A stretch of 64,000 nucleotides of DNA from Shigella phage Sf18, in sequence record MF158044. One strand, written 5' to 3'. Positions 29,342 to 37,652 of the stretch are shown here, piece after piece. The position numbers and the translations under genes were made by a program. Under the pieces are notes generated by a model. The model had not been told where the DNA came from, made no database searches, and saw only the letters and a list, made by a program, of their open reading frames with translations. Every line of letters starts with the position of its first letter. Positions within the stretch are counted from its first letter, which is position 1.

Positions 29342-30013
29342 TTACATCACTTCACTAAGCATAGTTTGCAATGAAGTTTTAGAAGTCTGGAAGAAGTGTG
29401 TGAACCCATTATGACGTTCTCTTACCTGAATCATTATCTGGTCACCCTTAATCGGGTGTGAACTAATATGGTATTCATTCATGTTCAGTACAACACCCAA
29501 ACCATCTATAATGTGTCTGAGTATGTCATATTCAACAAATTCTTCTTTACCTGTGACCTTGATACAAACACCCTTGTTAGTTCTTTTAGGGTTTATATCT
29601 TCCATAACCAGCATTTGTTGTCCACCAAGAGAAATCATAGAGAACTCTTTACGGTTCTGCTGCTTAACATACATCTCGAGTTTCTTCAAAGTATCTTCAT
29701 AGAACGGGTAAGACTTCTTGACAAAGATACCTTCAAGTGGCTCTTTACCTGTTAGATTTCTACGATAATTCATCCGATGAATAAGACGATACAGGTCACT
29801 TTTCTCATCTTTGGTAAAGTGTCTGTCTACATCTTTAACACTAAATGTGATATAATTACTCTCAAGTTCAAACTTTTTCATCTCTATCAAATCCTTAAAG
29901 CATTTCTTAGTAATCGCTTCCCATTCTTCGGAGTTCTTTCTCTTCCTCTTCAGATGGGGAACCATATCTGCTAAGTTCTTCCAACTCTTCTTCAGTAGGT
30001 GTCCCATAATCAC
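29342..30013 (-). CDS. hypothetical protein
   Basis: 223 aa ORF, last gene of minus-strand operon; terminator downstream. Confidence 0.5.
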   Translation of the reverse strand: MIMGHLLKKSWKNLADMVPHLKRKRKNSEEWEAITKKCFKDLIEMKKFELESNYITFSVKDVDRHFTKDEKSDLYRLIHRMNYRRNLTGKEPLEGIFVKKSYPFYEDTLKKLEMYVKQQNRKEFSMISLGGQQMLVMEDINPKRTNKGVCIKVTGKEEFVEYDILRHIIDGLGVVLNMNEYHISSHPIKGDQIMIQVRERHNGFTHFFQTSKTSLQTMLSEVM

Positions 30014-30444
30014 ATCTTAAGTTTGAAAGTGTTTTTACCATTGACCTGAATATACCCATCATTTTCAACTATCCAGTGTGCGGTTGAGAATGCACTATAT
30101 GCGTTTGCTTCACCATAACCAAGGAACTTACCATCACACATACTTTCAATATGTATTGTGCCTACTGGTTCACCTGTATCAACGGTTTCTACAATATAGA
30201 GTGTGTTTAGCTTTATGGAACTAGCCTTAGTCTCTTCTTTGAAGCGTTCAGGTAGAGACATATCAAGCCCTTCAGTTATTACAGATTGCATGTAAGCTTC
30301 TGAACACTCCCAGATAAAGCTATGAAGAAGAACCTTTGCAGCATGTCTTGAACAACCAAGGTCTTCGACGATATCTTTATACATATCATCTTTAGTACCG
30401 TTGTTAAGCAAAGCTTTACGCACTACCTCTTTAACATTCTTCAT
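30010..30444 (-). CDS. hypothetical protein
   Basis: Start moved to internal ATG (MKNVKEV) with GAGG RBS; ORF-track start 30495 overlaps upstream gene. Confidence 0.45.
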   Translation of the reverse strand: MKNVKEVVRKALLNNGTKDDMYKDIVEDLGCSRHAAKVLLHSFIWECSEAYMQSVITEGLDMSLPERFKEETKASSIKLNTLYIVETVDTGEPVGTIHIESMCDGKFLGYGEANAYSAFSTAHWIVENDGYIQVNGKNTFKLKM

Positions 30445-30733
30445 CTTTCCAATCCTCATCTCTCTCAATTTGAAACTCATCAGGTAACTCTGCAATAGCT
30501 TTCAAGTAATAAGCTTCTTGAATACTGCAAAGTTCTTCATAACCACCATTCATAAGCCAGTTGTAACCAGCAGGTACACCATTATCATCGCAGAACCCTG
30601 TGTAGAACATTGCTTTATGAATCATGTTAAGTGGCTTGTAAGCAACTTCAACGATGTAGAAAGTGTTATCTTTCCAACCACCCTTTGGAGGATGGATACC
30701 TTTAACACCTCTGGATTGTGGAGTCATAGTCAA
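30431..30733 (-). CDS. hypothetical protein
   Basis: 100 aa ORF; start overlaps upstream stop. Confidence 0.45.
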   Translation of the reverse strand: MTMTPQSRGVKGIHPPKGGWKDNTFYIVEVAYKPLNMIHKAMFYTGFCDDNGVPAGYNWLMNGGYEELCSIQEAYYLKAIAELPDEFQIERDEDWKDEEC

Positions 30734-31173
30734 CCTTTAGAAATTTTTATATCAATGATATTCAAAAGTGCTTGTCTAGATAACTTACCAGATTTTAAGT
30801 ATGGAAGCAATGGTTCTAGTGCATTATCAATCTTAACAGACATTTCTAAGATTTCTTTTGCAATATCTTCTTGAAGGATACTGTATGTGCAAACCCCACT
30901 TACATCTTTCTCATCAAACATTGCAATCTGGATATCAAAAACTTTGTGGTCAGCATGTGCTATGCCTCTGTACAAGAAGTTTTTATCAAACGTGATAATC
31001 TCCCCGCACTTAAATGTCATTCCTTTATCACCTTCACCAATGATGAAATCATTAGTGAGTTCTACTGAGAATGGATAACGGCCTTGTTCAATGTTTCTGA
31101 CTGTACCAAATGCTACACGCTCTCTCGTTGCATAGTTTACAAGCTCTACTACTTCATACTTCTTAAGTTCCAT
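30730..31173 (-). CDS. hypothetical protein
   Basis: 147 aa ORF with GAGGTAG RBS. Confidence 0.5.
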   Translation of the reverse strand: MELKKYEVVELVNYATRERVAFGTVRNIEQGRYPFSVELTNDFIIGEGDKGMTFKCGEIITFDKNFLYRGIAHADHKVFDIQIAMFDEKDVSGVCTYSILQEDIAKEILEMSVKIDNALEPLLPYLKSGKLSRQALLNIIDIKISKG

Positions 31174-31215
31174 TTTCGCTACCTCTAAACAGGGGCTTTT
31201 ACACCCCTTGACAGA

Positions 31216-35545: not shown

Positions 35546-36426
35546 CCTCCTACTGCGTTAATAACCACCTTGGCAGATTGGGATGTGATTGAGCCACCTA
35601 CACCAGTTACAACACAAGAGTAAGTACCTTCATCATCAGCTTTAGAAGTCGGTGTCTTTTCATATGTTGCAGATGTTGCTGAAGGGATATCTACATCATC
35701 TTTCTTCCACTGATAACCAGTTGCACCAGTGGCTACGATGCTAAGGGTGAGTGTATCTCCCTCTGTAATCTCTTGGTTAGTAGGTTGCTGTGTAATCACA
35801 GGCAGTGCATTCACAGTTACTGTGGCAGCGTTGGAATTAACACTTGAGCCACCTTCACCAGAAACTACACAGGTGTATGCGCCAGCATCAGTAGGGACTA
35901 CGCCATTCTTAGTATATGTTGCAGAGGTTGCTCCAGAGATGTTTGATGCACCTTTCTTCCACTGATAACCAGTTGCACCAGTAGCAACAACTGAAAGTGT
36001 AAGTGTTCCACCCTCGTTAACAGTTTGGTCAGTTGGCTGCTGTGTAATAACTGGAGGTGTGATTGCATCCTTCAACTTTGCATTAAGCATGGAGAAAGGT
36101 TTAACCCTTGCCAACCATTCACAATAAACTGTGTCAACATCCTTCCCATTGATGATTGCATACTGCAAGTCCATGAAGAAGTCAGCAGTCCTCATCTGAG
36201 CACCAACTGAATATAAAAGTTCTTCACTAAATGGAACTGTGTAGTCTGGTGTGTAATTGAAGTCAGTAACTTCTGGAATATCAGACTCAGGCCACGGTGA
36301 GCTATATGTCAGAGGCAGAACGGCCTCTTGATACTTTCTGAAGTCGTATCTTTTGCCAGCTTTAACATTCGCTACAAAGTCTTTAACGAACTCTTTAAAA
36401 TCTGGATATGTCTTTGCTTTAATCAT
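35542..36426 (-). CDS. protein with N-terminal domain paralogous to next gene plus two tandem Ig-like domains
   Basis: Two ~85-aa repeats (PVITQQPT...GATGYQWKK...TVN) typical of Ig-like beta-sandwich repeats. Confidence 0.5.
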   Translation of the reverse strand: MIKAKTYPDFKEFVKDFVANVKAGKRYDFRKYQEAVLPLTYSSPWPESDIPEVTDFNYTPDYTVPFSEELLYSVGAQMRTADFFMDLQYAIINGKDVDTVYCEWLARVKPFSMLNAKLKDAITPPVITQQPTDQTVNEGGTLTLSVVATGATGYQWKKGASNISGATSATYTKNGVVPTDAGAYTCVVSGEGGSSVNSNAATVTVNALPVITQQPTNQEITEGDTLTLSIVATGATGYQWKKDDVDIPSATSATYEKTPTSKADDEGTYSCVVTGVGGSITSQSAKVVINAVGG

Positions 36427-36791
36427 TTCTTAGCCTCTAATCTTGCATTTAGTCTAAAATAACCTTTGTGCTGCGGTGAAACATCACCTACAACAACTCC
36501 GTCAATCTTATAGCCTTTACCCATCACATATTGAATATCCATCAAAAATGTACCAAGACCAACGATATGAAACATTGGGTAAAGAAGTTCTTCAGTATCT
36601 GGTAGAGGAATTTTAGGTGTGTATTCGGAATATGTTTCGGTAGGGTTGATATCCTTCTCAGGCCATTTGCTATCACGCCATGTTAAGGGTGTCGGAAGTA
36701 CATCATCAAGATTATACCTGTCACCTTCTTGAACACTTTGGACATAAGATTGTAGGAAGCAATAAAAGTCTTTTCCACTCTTTGCCTTCAT
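36423..36791 (-). CDS. hypothetical protein, paralog of N-terminal domain of 35542-36426
   Basis: Alignable by eye: shared RY, WPE.DI, YTP, ELLY, FFMD.QY, LNA.L positions. Confidence 0.45.
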   Translation of the reverse strand: MKAKSGKDFYCFLQSYVQSVQEGDRYNLDDVLPTPLTWRDSKWPEKDINPTETYSEYTPKIPLPDTEELLYPMFHIVGLGTFLMDIQYVMGKGYKIDGVVVGDVSPQHKGYFRLNARLEAKK

Positions 36792-36834
36792 TATCTATCC
36801 TTAACAAATAAAAGGGGCTTTCGCCCCATAAAAC

Positions 36835-37425
36835 TTAAGCCATAGTCTTAAGCATGTTTTTAAGTTTTTTGAGATTCATTGTCTCATCCAACTTAAATCC
36901 AAATCCATTGACGTACTCAATGAAATCAGATTTCTTACTCAGAGATAACGCATAGTTCATGTCGAAGTCATTACTTGGAGTGGACTCTGGAGAGGTGTTC
37001 ACATCGAAAGAAATCTCTGTGGAAGTATCTTCAGACTCTCTGAGGTTATCAATCACAACACATGTGTAGTTTGCTGGAGAGAATGATGTTGAACCAGCTA
37101 CATAACTGTATTTAGCATTGTGGATAAGATTTGAGAATACTTTGAAGAATGTTTCTGAATCATGACACACCAGTTTAAATTCACTATTAGCACCTAAAGA
37201 CATAAGTGAATATGGGCTTTCACCATCAATGTTATAATCTGGGTTCATTGACTGAACAGTAACACGCATCAAGTTATTTGCAATTGTTTTCTGTTTAAAT
37301 GAATTAGGTACGTAGTGCATACCTCTTTCACATTGATTGACCAACTCTTTAAGAAGGTCATCAGAATATGGTGAAGTGATTGATACAGACCCATCACCAT
37401 TATAATTAAAACTCACGTTTAACAT
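36835..37425 (-). CDS. hypothetical protein
   Basis: 196 aa ORF. Confidence 0.45.
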   Translation of the reverse strand: MLNVSFNYNGDGSVSITSPYSDDLLKELVNQCERGMHYVPNSFKQKTIANNLMRVTVQSMNPDYNIDGESPYSLMSLGANSEFKLVCHDSETFFKVFSNLIHNAKYSYVAGSTSFSPANYTCVVIDNLRESEDTSTEISFDVNTSPESTPSNDFDMNYALSLSKKSDFIEYVNGFGFKLDETMNLKKLKNMLKTMA

Positions 37426-37652
37426 TTATCAGTTCTCCTACGATTGATAATCTTGCTGCAATAGAGAAATGAAGCAAATTCACTGGAAGAAACCATTAGA
37501 ACCTGTTCACTAGATTGAGCTATTGCTCTGAAATACATACCAGTTAGTGCATCATAGTGCTTATTCTTTCCAATTGAAGTGATATACCCATGACTCTTTG
37601 CAGTTTGGTATAAATCAATAATATCTGTGATTTCTAGTTGGGAGCTACACAT
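37419..37652 (-). CDS. hypothetical small protein (first gene of minus-strand operon)
   Basis: ATG with AGAGGA RBS. Confidence 0.4.
   Translation of the reverse strand: MCSSQLEITDIIDLYQTAKSHGYITSIGKNKHYDALTGMYFRAIAQSSEQVLMVSSSEFASFLYCSKIINRRRTDKC

What the first reader, a model, noticed from the sequence alone, without database searches (positions are those of the whole stretch)
29342..37652. Eighteen-gene minus-strand operon of almost entirely unknown function with embedded endolysin
Genes overlap start-to-stop (ATGA/TAATG junctions) from 37652 down to 29342, transcribed opposite to everything else in the window. Only the GH24 endolysin (35075-35545) is recognisable, and an internal terminator follows it. 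The operon contains a two-TM protein (31496-32002) that could be a holin or exclusion protein. The only spanin-like pair and a secreted SLT-like protein lie elsewhere on the plus strand (15991-18248), so lysis functions are split between two differently oriented units.
Basis: partly seen in the sequence, partly recalled or inferred. Interest (0 to 1): 0.4.

Follow-up and report, generated by a model that had tools for sequence, protein, structure and literature searches.

The report
Felix O1-type leftward phage gene block
This is the well-conserved opposite-strand gene block of a Felix O1-like (Mooglevirus) phage, described for Felix O1 in 2010; it is several terminator-separated transcription units, not one operon, and it encodes a capsid decoration protein as well as the endolysin, so it is largely ordinary.

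Summary
The window is a Mooglevirus genome (98.5% identical to Shigella phage Sf19). The minus-strand ORF run is real. It has 20 conserved ORFs rather than 18, and it starts at 37795.

It is the counterpart of Felix O1 genes 40→24. The 2010 Felix O1 paper already called that block one of four "transcriptons", with the same three internal terminators and RT-PCR timing. Scattered lysis genes are also documented for this group.

- The gene next to the endolysin is the Hoc-like head decoration protein, proven in Sf14 by cryo-EM and mass spectrometry.
- The gene before that is a stand-alone paralogue of its capsid-binding domain.
- The block is cut by three strong, conserved terminators. Two of them are abutted by sigma70-like promoters, in a promoter–hairpin–SD cassette that also occurs four times on the plus strand. 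This resembles T4-type PeSLs.
- The two-TM protein is a poor holin candidate.
- The last gene is predicted to have a Whirly-like nucleic-acid-binding fold.

The remaining ORFs are Ounavirinae-restricted ORFans. The finding is already known and of low interest.

The parts
37840..37868 (-). Promoter-like site TTGACT-17-TACCAT upstream of the first gene (unit A). It lies in a divergent control region that is about 95% identical to Felix O1.
37634..37795 (-). g00, 53 aa, unknown function (Felix O1 ORF40, 81% id).
   Evidence: RBS AAGGAG
37419..37652 (-). g01, 77 aa, unknown function. It is the most conserved ORF of the block (91% to Felix O1 ORF39).
36835..37425 (-). g02, 196 aa, unknown function (phrog_4034). 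Only 14 relatives were found among 1.8 billion representatives.
36814..36827 (-). Intrinsic terminator GGGGCGAAAGCCCC+T-run (dG -11.2). It equals Felix O1 t38. No abutting promoter (best 6/12).
36423..36791 (-). g03, 122 aa. Stand-alone paralogue of the capsid-binding domain of the decoration protein. The anchoring Arg79/Arg107 are replaced by Gly/Gln.
35542..36426 (-). g04, 294 aa. Hoc-like head decoration protein: N-terminal capsid-binding domain plus two Ig-like domains.
35075..35539 (-). g05, 154 aa. Soluble GH24 endolysin (ATG start; E15/D24/T30).
35045..35097 (-). Composite cassette: TTGACG-17-TAGATT abutting the hairpin AAGAGGCTCCTTCGGGAGCCTTTT plus T-run, then SD GGAG and the ATG of g06. 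It equals Felix O1 t35.
34626..35036 (-). g06, 136 aa, unknown function (Felix O1 ORF34, 60%).
34253..34633 (-). g07, 126 aa, acidic (pI 4.1), unknown function (ORF33).
33958..34251 (-). g08, 97 aa, unknown function (ORF32).
33621..33965 (-). g09, 114 aa, unknown function (ORF31).
33026..33619 (-). g10, 197 aa, unknown function (ORF30). Subthreshold DUF5092 hit.
32976..33029 (-). Composite cassette: TTGACA-18-TATGAT abutting the hairpin GGGAGCTATCGAAAGGTGGTTCCC plus T-run, then SD GGAGAG and the ATG of g11. It equals Felix O1 t29. The -35 and -10 are conserved while the spacer has diverged.
32214..32954 (-). g11, 246 aa, unknown function (ORF29, 39-41%, variable middle).
31999..32217 (-). g12, 72 aa, basic (pI 10.1), unknown function (ORF28).
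31496..32002 (-). g13, 168 aa. Membrane protein with a conserved N-terminal soluble domain, a two-TM helical hairpin (N-in/C-in by charge) and an invariant C-terminal FEEVSKECNL (ORF27).
31422..31514 (-). g14s, 30 aa small ORF. It is 100% conserved in Moogleviruses and 68% in Felix O1, where it is unannotated.
31216..31425 (-). g15, 69 aa, unknown function (ORF26).
30730..31173 (-). g16, 147 aa accessory ORF. Present in Sf19 and Michonne; absent from Moogle, KPS64 and Felix O1.
30431..30727 (-). g17, 98 aa accessory ORF. Absent from Moogle and Felix O1.
30010..30444 (-). g18, 144 aa (start MKNVKEV). Conserved N-terminal 55 aa with a mosaic C-terminal half: 96.5% to KPS64 but 44% to Sf19.
29342..30013 (-). 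g19, 221-223 aa, basic (pI 9.4). The C-terminal domain (about 120-223) is predicted to have a Whirly-like (bbbba x2) fold (ORF24).
29316..29333 (.). Bidirectional terminator hairpin AGCCCCTTAATTGGGGCT closing the block (dG -12.2).

Best explanation
The region is the Mooglevirus version of the Felix O1 'transcripton' made of genes 40 to 24. It is a conserved leftward block lying between a repeat-rich non-coding region and the divergent control region that also drives the tRNA and structural genes. It is best read as four transcription units rather than one operon.

- **Unit A (g00-g02).** It starts at a sigma70-like promoter in a control region about 95% identical to Felix O1. It ends at the 36827 terminator.
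- **Unit B (g03-g05).** It carries virion and lysis functions: a capsid-binding-domain paralogue, the Hoc-like decoration protein and a soluble GH24 endolysin. It has no sigma70 promoter of its own. It is therefore probably reached by read-through or by an unidentified late mechanism.
- **Units C (g06-g10) and D (g11-g19).** Each begins at a compact cassette of -35, -10, GC hairpin, U-run, SD and ATG. The hairpin stops transcripts coming from upstream. The abutting promoter is predicted to start inside the hairpin's 5' arm, so its own transcripts lack all of the stem (cassette D) or part of it (cassette C) and continue.

Units C and D encode Ounavirinae-restricted small proteins. These include a conserved two-TM membrane protein and a terminal protein predicted to bind single-stranded nucleic acid. 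The distal end is the variable part.

Shown here: the orthology, the terminators, the domain identities and the non-random association of promoters with hairpins. Inferred: promoter activity, the start sites, the temporal classes and all functions of the ORFans.
For: **Identity**
- 98.5% identity to Sf19 over 97% of the region, with 253 phage records matching.
- Gene-by-gene orthology to Felix O1 ORF40-24, at 38-91% amino-acid identity for 17 of 20 ORFs.
- The Felix O1 paper describes four transcriptons including 40-24, and terminators t38, t35 and t29 whose sequences match ours.

**Units**
- Hairpin dG values are -11.2, -15.7, -16.0 and -12.2 kcal/mol. The same sites are annotated as terminators in Michonne.

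**Cassettes**
- 6 of 12 terminator hairpins in the window have a promoter of at least 9/12 whose -10 ends 0-1 nt before the stem. The background rate is 0.34% of positions, giving a binomial P of 1.5e-12.
- The -35 and -10 of the 32999 cassette are conserved (-10 TATGAT invariant; -35 TTGACA, TTGACC in Felix O1) across five other phages, while the spacer has diverged in Felix O1.
- Four to five cassettes are conserved at orthologous Felix O1 sites.
- A transcript started 8 nt after the -10 loses the 32999 hairpin (-4.2 kcal/mol, not significant). At the 35068 site it keeps only a 5-bp stem.

**Timing**
- Felix O1 RT-PCR gave ORF36, 37 and 30 maximal at 60 min. ORF24-26, 28, 29, 32-35 and 38 were maximal at 25 min.

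**Proteins**
- g04 matches PDB 9c2d_S and 9ncf_S at E<=1e-185.
- g03 matches the capsid-binding domain at E=1.7e-12.
Against: - No transcript ends have been mapped for any Ounavirinae phage in the literature I could search.
- The general sigma70 scan shows no enrichment over shuffles in the region (33 found against 33.8 expected). Only the positional association with hairpins is significant.
- The -35 elements lie in coding sequence, so part of their conservation may be due to coding constraint.
- At the 35068 cassette a 5-bp UUCG hairpin plus U-run would remain in the new transcript (-8.3 kcal/mol). Escape from termination is therefore less clear there.
- The Felix O1 RT-PCR data are coarse. 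The major capsid gene scored 'early'. ORF35 (25 min) and ORF36 (60 min) differ although they are adjacent.
- Foldseek against the PDB gave no hit at E<=0.001 for g19, and it mixed PH-like domains with the Whirly-like hits.
Confidence: 0.75

Rival explanations
1. This is the first reader's model: a single polycistronic operon. All 18-20 genes are transcribed from the promoter at about 37868. The internal hairpins act only as attenuators or RNA-stability elements.
For: - Gene packing is tight, with 10-11 overlapping junctions.
- All genes share one orientation.
- There is no room for a promoter downstream of any hairpin.
- Unit B has no recognisable promoter of its own, so some read-through of the 36827 hairpin is probably needed anyway.
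Against: - There are three hairpins of -11 to -16 kcal/mol with U-runs, conserved from Mooglevirus to Felix O1.
- Sigma70-like promoters abut two of them, in an arrangement whose genome-wide frequency is far above chance (P about 1e-12).
- Felix O1 RT-PCR timing is heterogeneous within the block.
Confidence: 0.15
2. The block is in part a dispersed lysis module. The two-TM protein g13 (31496-32002) is the holin, or a holin regulator or exclusion protein, that releases the soluble endolysin g05.
For: - It is the only two-TM protein in the window.
- Its charge distribution gives an N-in/C-in topology, and it has a charged C-terminal tail.
- The endolysin has no signal or SAR sequence, so a holin is required.
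- No holin has been verified experimentally for Felix O1-like phages.
Against: - g13 lies 3 kb and two terminators away from the endolysin.
- It is 168 aa with an N-terminal domain of about 85 aa.
- The invariant residues sit in the N-terminal domain and in the C-terminal FEEVSKECNL. The TM helices are the less conserved parts, which is atypical for holins.
- It has no Pfam or PHROG holin match.
- The Moogle annotators chose a different protein, after the tail-fibre genes and outside this window.
- The Felix O1 authors' holin candidates (gp79, 116, 118, 119, 131) do not include ORF27.
Confidence: 0.1
3. Units C and D form a hyperplastic accessory island of host-takeover or anti-defence ORFans. 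The island is shuffled by recombination between the repeated promoter-terminator cassettes, as in the PeSL-rich regions of T4-type phages.
For: - The products are small ORFans restricted to Ounavirinae.
- g16 and g17 are present or absent among close relatives, and g18 has a mosaic C-terminal half.
- Nearly identical hairpins (AGAGGCTCCTTCGGGAGCC) occur on both strands, at 17698, 35068 and 11504.
- PeSLs are documented to flank ORFans and to mediate indels.
Against: - 17 of 20 ORFs are syntenic and conserved between two genera, so most of the block behaves as core rather than hyperplastic.
- The variable genes g16-g18 are not flanked by the cassettes.
- No protein matched any defence-related or anti-defence family in Pfam (all 20), NCBIfam (ten only) or PHROGs (all 20).
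Confidence: 0.2

Closest known systems
Felix O1 'transcripton' genes 40-24 (Whichard et al. 2010, PMC3185647)
   Same: - Same gene order and orientation.
- Same flanks: DUF5681/DUF2828 genes and the tRNA array on one side, and a non-coding gap of about 1.6 kb on the other.
- Same lysin, Ig-like virion protein and membrane protein.
- Same three internal terminators (t38, t35, t29).
   Different: - Mooglevirus has three extra small genes here. Two of them (g16, g17) have no Felix O1 counterpart, and the third (g14s) is conserved but unannotated in Felix O1.
- g11 is longer.
- g18 is mosaic.
- Amino-acid identity is 38-91%.
PeSLs, the promoter-early stem-loop cassettes of T4-type phages (Arbiol 2010, PMC2839356; Comeau 2014, PMC4122927)
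   Same: - A composite sigma70-like promoter plus terminator-like stem-loop, with an SD and start codon at the 3' end.
- The element is repeated many times per genome and lies in front of small ORFs.
- The proposed role is the same: to isolate units transcriptionally.
   Different: - In PeSLs the stem-loop usually lies between -35 and -10, or overlaps the -10. Here it starts 0-1 nt after the -10, so the predicted start site falls inside the stem.
- There is no sequence homology.
- Activity and a role in recombination are untested here.
- I found no description of such cassettes for Felix O1-like phages in the searchable literature.
Sf14 gp20 / T4 Hoc head decoration proteins (PMC11821841; PDB 9c2d, 9c3a, 9ncf)
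   Same: - g04 has the N-terminal helical capsid-binding domain with Arg79 and Arg107.
- It also has Ig-like domains.
- The orthologues are in virions.
   Different: - g04 has two Ig domains by Pfam and is 294 aa, against 372 aa for the Sf14 chain (described in the Sf14 paper as having three Ig-like domains).
- The neighbouring g03 is the capsid-binding domain alone. It lacks both anchoring arginines and is not among the modelled capsid chains.
T4-style dispersed lysis genes
   Same: The endolysin, the spanin pair and the holin candidate are at separate loci. rIIA and rIIB are present.
   Different: - No T-holin homologue is present.
- The holin has not been identified experimentally.

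Membership tests
Felix O1-type leftward block (genes 40-24) | Collinear orthologues of ORF40 to ORF24 on the strand opposite to the structural genes | tested here: met
   17 of 20 ORFs have reciprocal-order BLASTP hits at 38-91% identity. The annotations of Sf19, Michonne, KPS64, Moogle and Felix O1 are collinear.
Felix O1-type leftward block (genes 40-24) | Internal rho-independent terminators after ORF38, ORF35 and ORF29 | tested here: met
   Hairpins at 36827, 35068 and 32999 align with t38, t35 and t29.
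Single operon | One promoter and no efficient internal terminator | tested here: not met
   There are three internal hairpin+U-run terminators of -11 to -16 kcal/mol, and two internal promoter-like sites. In-vivo efficiency is not testable here.
GH24 phage lysozyme (endolysin) | Pfam PF00959 above the gathering score, and the E-X8-D-X5-T catalytic motif | tested here: met
   135.4 bits against a cut-off of 22.3. E15, D24 and T30 were read from the translation.
GH24 phage lysozyme (endolysin) | Cytoplasmic (holin-dependent) rather than SAR or secreted | tested here: met
   No hydrophobic 19-mer in the protein.
Hoc-like decoration protein (Sf14 gp20 family) | N-terminal capsid-binding domain homologous to the solved chain, with Arg79 and Arg107, plus Ig-like domains | tested here: met
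   For g04: 9c2d_S at E=4.6e-185 and 9ncf_S at E about 1e-257. Two Ig_3 domains. R79 and R107 are present.
Hoc-like decoration protein (Sf14 gp20 family) | The same features, tested for g03 | tested here: not met
   g03 has only the capsid-binding domain (E=1.7e-12 to residues 3-119). It has no Ig domains, and R79/R107 are replaced by G/Q. It is a paralogue, not a decoration protein by this definition.
Hoc-like decoration protein (Sf14 gp20 family) | Presence on the capsid | not testable with these tools
   Shown for the orthologues Sf14 gp20 (cryo-EM, MS) and Felix O1 gp36 (MS).
Holin (tested for g13) | Small membrane protein with at least one TMD and a charged C-terminus | tested here: inconclusive
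   It has two TM helices and a KKK-rich tail. However it is 168 aa with a conserved 85-aa N-terminal domain, and its TMDs are less conserved than its soluble parts.
Holin (tested for g13) | Match to a holin family, or adjacency to the endolysin | tested here: not met
   No holin family in Pfam or PHROGs. It lies 3 kb and two terminators downstream of the endolysin.
Holin (tested for g13) | Lethal hole formation that releases the endolysin | not testable with these tools
   Needs genetics.
PeSL-type promoter-terminator cassette | A sigma70-like promoter joined to a stable stem-loop, with an SD and start codon at the 3' end, repeated in the genome | tested here: met
   Six copies in the window, each with a 9-11/12 promoter, a stem of 8-10 bp and an SD+ATG within about 25 nt. 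Four to five are conserved in Felix O1.
PeSL-type promoter-terminator cassette | Stem-loop placed between -35 and -10, or overlapping the -10 | tested here: not met
   Here the stem begins 0-1 nt after the -10, against the description.
PeSL-type promoter-terminator cassette | Demonstrated promoter and terminator activity; mediates ORFan indels | not testable with these tools
   The variable genes g16-g18 are not bounded by cassettes, so the indel role is unsupported here.
Whirly-like ss-nucleic-acid-binding fold (tested for g19) | Two bbbba repeats with structural similarity to Whirly, MRP or SsgB proteins | tested here: met
Whirly-like ss-nucleic-acid-binding fold (tested for g19) | Sequence-level membership of a Whirly or PUR family | tested here: not met
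   No Pfam hit. Foldseek against the PDB gave nothing at E<=0.001, with mixed folds.
Whirly-like ss-nucleic-acid-binding fold (tested for g19) | Binding of ssDNA or RNA | not testable with these tools
   Needs EMSA.

The most novel reading that the evidence does not exclude
The many 'unexplained' terminators of Felix O1-like phages would be halves of a compact promoter-hairpin-SD cassette. The transcription start would lie inside the terminator stem. Each cassette would then both stop upstream transcripts and launch a terminator-immune one. This would be a PeSL-like insulator architecture not described for Ounavirinae, and it would break this 'operon' into independently timed units.

Separately, g03 would be a decoy or alternative-site paralogue of the decoration protein's capsid anchor.
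Probability: 0.45. Interest if true: 0.4.

Novelty: already known. Interest (0 to 1): 0.2.

Why it matters
As stated, the finding repeats what the 2010 Felix O1 genome paper and later Mooglevirus announcements reported: a leftward gene block, a lysin away from the holin and spanins, and mostly hypothetical proteins. Its practical value is better annotation of phages used for Salmonella, Shigella and E. coli biocontrol.

- The 'tail protein' should be labelled as the Hoc-like decoration protein.
- Its neighbour is a capsid-binding-domain paralogue.
- The last gene is a candidate single-stranded nucleic-acid binder.

The promoter-abutting-terminator cassettes offer a concrete, testable answer to a question the Felix O1 authors left open, namely how transcription passes the numerous terminators. 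That is of modest, specialist interest.

Tried and rejected
- **Family searches.** Pfam and PHROGs scans of all 20 products, and NCBIfam for ten of them, gave only the lysozyme and Ig domains. All other PHROGs are 'unknown function'. Weak Pfam hits (DUF5092, RdRP, Phage_holin_9 at E=0.037) are below threshold and I disregarded them.
- **Paralogues.** An all-against-all search in the window found only g03/g04.
- **g13.** Its homologues are confined to Ounavirinae. AF2 gave pLDDT 72, with a low-confidence N-terminal domain, so I did not run a fold search on it.
- **g02.** A profile search of 1.8 billion representatives gave 14 hits, all in the same PHROG and with no informative domain.
- **g19.** The viral structure library returned only uncharacterised proteins. 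The afdb50 library was unavailable.
- **Late promoter.** No TATAAATA occurs in the window, and upstream of g03 shares no motif with structural-gene upstream regions.
- **Literature.** I found no time-resolved RNA-seq for Felix O1-like phages. The UE-M6 holin paper and the retron Eco2 paper turned out to be irrelevant. The Sf14 physiology paper has no data on lysis genes.
- **Rfam.** Only tRNAs were found.

Full report
**What the window is.** Region 29342-37652 is 98.5% identical over 97% of its length to Shigella phage Sf19 (Ounavirinae, Mooglevirus). It matches 253 phage records, nearly all Felix O1-like. The annotations of Sf19, Michonne, KPS64 and Moogle show the same minus-strand run. It is labelled 'hypothetical protein' except for a lysin and an Ig-domain 'tail protein'.

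**Checking the observation.**
- The ORF run is real.
- GC skew turns negative only between 30 and 38 kb.
- Nothing else credible is encoded on the minus strand of the window.
- Every ORF matches a PHROG family at E<=4e-23.
- Two small conserved ORFs were missed, giving 20 genes and a true 5' end at 37795. They are 37634-37795 (53 aa, 81% identical to Felix O1 ORF40, good RBS) and 31422-31514 (30 aa, identical in all Moogleviruses, 68% in Felix O1 where it is unannotated).
- Ten or eleven of 19 junctions overlap, four or five are 1-2 nt apart, and four are gaps of 38-71 nt.
- The endolysin is confirmed: PF00959, E=1.7e-39, E15/D24/T30, no hydrophobic N-terminus. So is the terminator after it.
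- The overlapped spanin pair on the plus strand is confirmed.
- The 'SLT-like' protein is only subthreshold.

**It is already described.** Whichard et al. (PMC3185647) divided Felix O1 into four 'transcriptons', one being genes 40-24. They called the divergent arrangement at genes 40/41 'odd'. They listed terminators t38, t35 and t29, whose sequences match the hairpins here. They noted that the lysin has no adjacent holin, and that gene 36, a virion protein, lies far from the other morphogenesis genes.

Seventeen of the 20 ORFs have collinear Felix O1 orthologues at 38-91% identity. Their RT-PCR placed ORF36, 37 and 30 at 60 min. ORF24-26, 28, 29, 32-35 and 38 peaked at 25 min, and ORF31 at 5 min.

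The Moogle announcement states that the lysis genes are scattered, as in Felix O1. Its record places the spanins after rIIB and the polynucleotide kinase, and the 'putative holin' after the tail-fibre gene, outside this window.

**More is recognisable than the endolysin.** The product of 35542-36426 has two Ig domains. It matches capsid chains 9c2d_S/9c3a and 9ncf_S at E<=1e-185. Its Sf14 orthologue gp20 is the Hoc-like decoration protein, seen by cryo-EM on quasi-three-fold hexamers and by mass spectrometry. It is anchored by Arg79 and Arg107. Felix O1 gp36 was also found in virions.

The upstream gene 36423-36791 is a paralogue of the capsid-binding domain alone. It is 37% identical, at E=6e-17 pairwise and E=1.7e-12 to 9c2d_S residues 3-119. 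In it, and in Felix O1 ORF37, the two anchoring arginines are replaced by Gly and by Gln or His. No near-identical PDB chain was found for it, so it appears not to be modelled in the solved capsids, and the Sf14 paper does not mention it. Its role is open.

**Not one operon.** Three internal hairpin+U-run terminators cut the block, at -11.2, -15.7 and -16.0 kcal/mol. A bidirectional one ends it. The same sites are annotated in Michonne.

At two of them the -10 of a sigma70-like promoter ends directly at the base of the stem: TTGACG-17-TAGATT before 35068, and TTGACA-18-TATGAT before 32999. The U-run is followed by GGAG and the next ATG. The same cassette occurs four times on the plus strand, at 3525, 7909, 11504 and 17698.

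Six of 12 hairpins carry such a promoter, against a background of 0.34% of positions (P about 1.5e-12). For the 32999 cassette the -35 and -10 are conserved (the -10 is invariant; the -35 differs by one base in Felix O1) in Sf19, KPS64, Michonne, Moogle and Felix O1, although the Felix O1 spacer has diverged. Four to five cassettes are conserved at orthologous Felix O1 sites.

A start about 7-8 nt after the -10 would fall inside the 5' arm of the stem. The resulting RNA loses the 32999 hairpin. At 35068 it keeps only a 5-bp UUCG stem. I infer that each cassette stops incoming transcripts and launches its own.

The 36827 terminator has no such promoter (best 6/12). This fits the later timing of ORF36 and 37 in Felix O1, but I found no late-promoter motif.

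The first unit starts at TTGACT-17-TACCAT. This lies in a divergent intergenic region that is about 95% identical to Felix O1, more conserved than the genes around it.

The closest known elements are the PeSLs of T4-type phages. There the stem-loop usually lies between -35 and -10, or over the -10. I found no description of such cassettes for Felix O1-like phages. The Felix O1 paper says that how transcription passes its terminators 'is not known'.

**The two-TM protein.** 31496-32002 has homologues only in Ounavirinae. AF2 gives a helical hairpin (52-109 and 115-164) after a poorly predicted beta-rich N-terminal domain. Flanking charges indicate an N-in/C-in topology.

The invariant positions are concentrated in the N-terminal domain (HH, GTGCFEGY, EYLKAFYRDF, DYN) and in the C-terminal FEEVSKECNL, not in the membrane helices. 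It matches no holin family. It is separated from the endolysin by two terminators. It was not chosen as a holin candidate by either annotating group. A holin role is not excluded, but I rate it at about 0.1.

**Other products.**
- g02 has only 14 detectable relatives among 1.8 billion representatives, none informative.
- g16 and g17 are accessory, and g18 has a mosaic C-terminal half. The distal end is therefore the plastic part.

**Verdict.** The ORF run is real, but the architecture is a documented hallmark of Felix O1-like phages. The interpretation needs correcting in three respects: it is several units rather than one operon, a proven structural gene and its paralogue are present, and the holin guess is weak. 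The cassette architecture, the capsid-binding-domain paralogue and the Whirly-like prediction are modest new annotations that need experiments.

Noticed in passing
window 27765-29315: A 1.55-kb stretch with no ORF longer than 46 aa lies directly downstream of the block. It is bracketed by convergent terminators (+27743-27760 and -29333-29316). It is packed with short motifs (CTTGTTAG, CTTAAAAG, CTATATAG, GTTAAGAG) phased at about 11 bp; TATATA is enriched 48-fold. It is collinear and 77% identical to the unannotated ORF23/ORF24 gap of Felix O1, which is at least as conserved as the neighbouring genes (66-73%). Candidates are an origin, a packaging or terminal region, or a protein-binding array.
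   Followed up: partly
window 37796-38042: The divergent control region between the block and the plus-strand genes is about 95% identical to Felix O1. It contains the palindrome AGATATCCAGAAAGATATCT, the direct repeats TTGTCAAG...TGTCAAG and several CTTTTAAG/CTTAAAAG motifs like those in the gene desert. It is probably operator-rich.
   Followed up: partly
window 62616-63447: There is a perfect 416-bp tandem duplication (2.0 copies, 100% match) inside the baseplate assembly gene. The 2001-nt query maps onto only 1585 nt in Sf17, Sf13, Sf19, Sf15, KPS64 and 3HA14, so close relatives lack the duplication. Since 416 is not a multiple of 3, the gene is split into ORFs 62115-63122 and 63044-64000. 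This is probably an assembly or circularisation artefact, or a defective variant.
   Followed up: partly
window 3480-3545, 7865-7930, 11460-11525, 17655-17720 (+ strand): Four more promoter-hairpin-SD cassettes of the same design sit in the nucleotide-metabolism and early region. The one at 17698 lies just before the spanin pair. The hairpins at 17698(+), 35068(-) and 11504(+) are nearly identical (AGAGGCTCCTTCGGGAGCC), so they form inverted and direct repeats that could recombine.
   Followed up: partly
window 20053-20558: A 505-nt plus-strand gap after the Macro-domain gene has no convincing ORF. It holds a 45-bp tandem repeat (2.9 copies, 20184-20306). Moogle annotates a small minus-strand gene in the equivalent place.
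   Followed up: no
window 30010-30444: g18 is mosaic. Its first 55 residues or so are conserved in all relatives. Its C-terminal half is 96.5% identical to KPS64 but only about 44% to Sf19 and Michonne. The window phage therefore differs from its best overall match at this locus.
   Followed up: partly
window 38043-39908 and 40075-45003: Immediately across the divergent region lie a DUF5681 protein and a DUF2828/DUF7788 (vWA-like, annotated 'RNA-binding') protein. A 25-gene tRNA array follows, with strong sigma70-like promoters between the genes.
   Followed up: no
window 12074-12253, 5778-6035, 22732-23079, 26328-26468 (+ strand): These are small single-TM proteins. One carries CxxC...CxxC motifs. 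They may correspond to the small membrane proteins the Felix O1 authors listed as holin candidates (orthology not checked here). None is in the minus-strand block.
   Followed up: no
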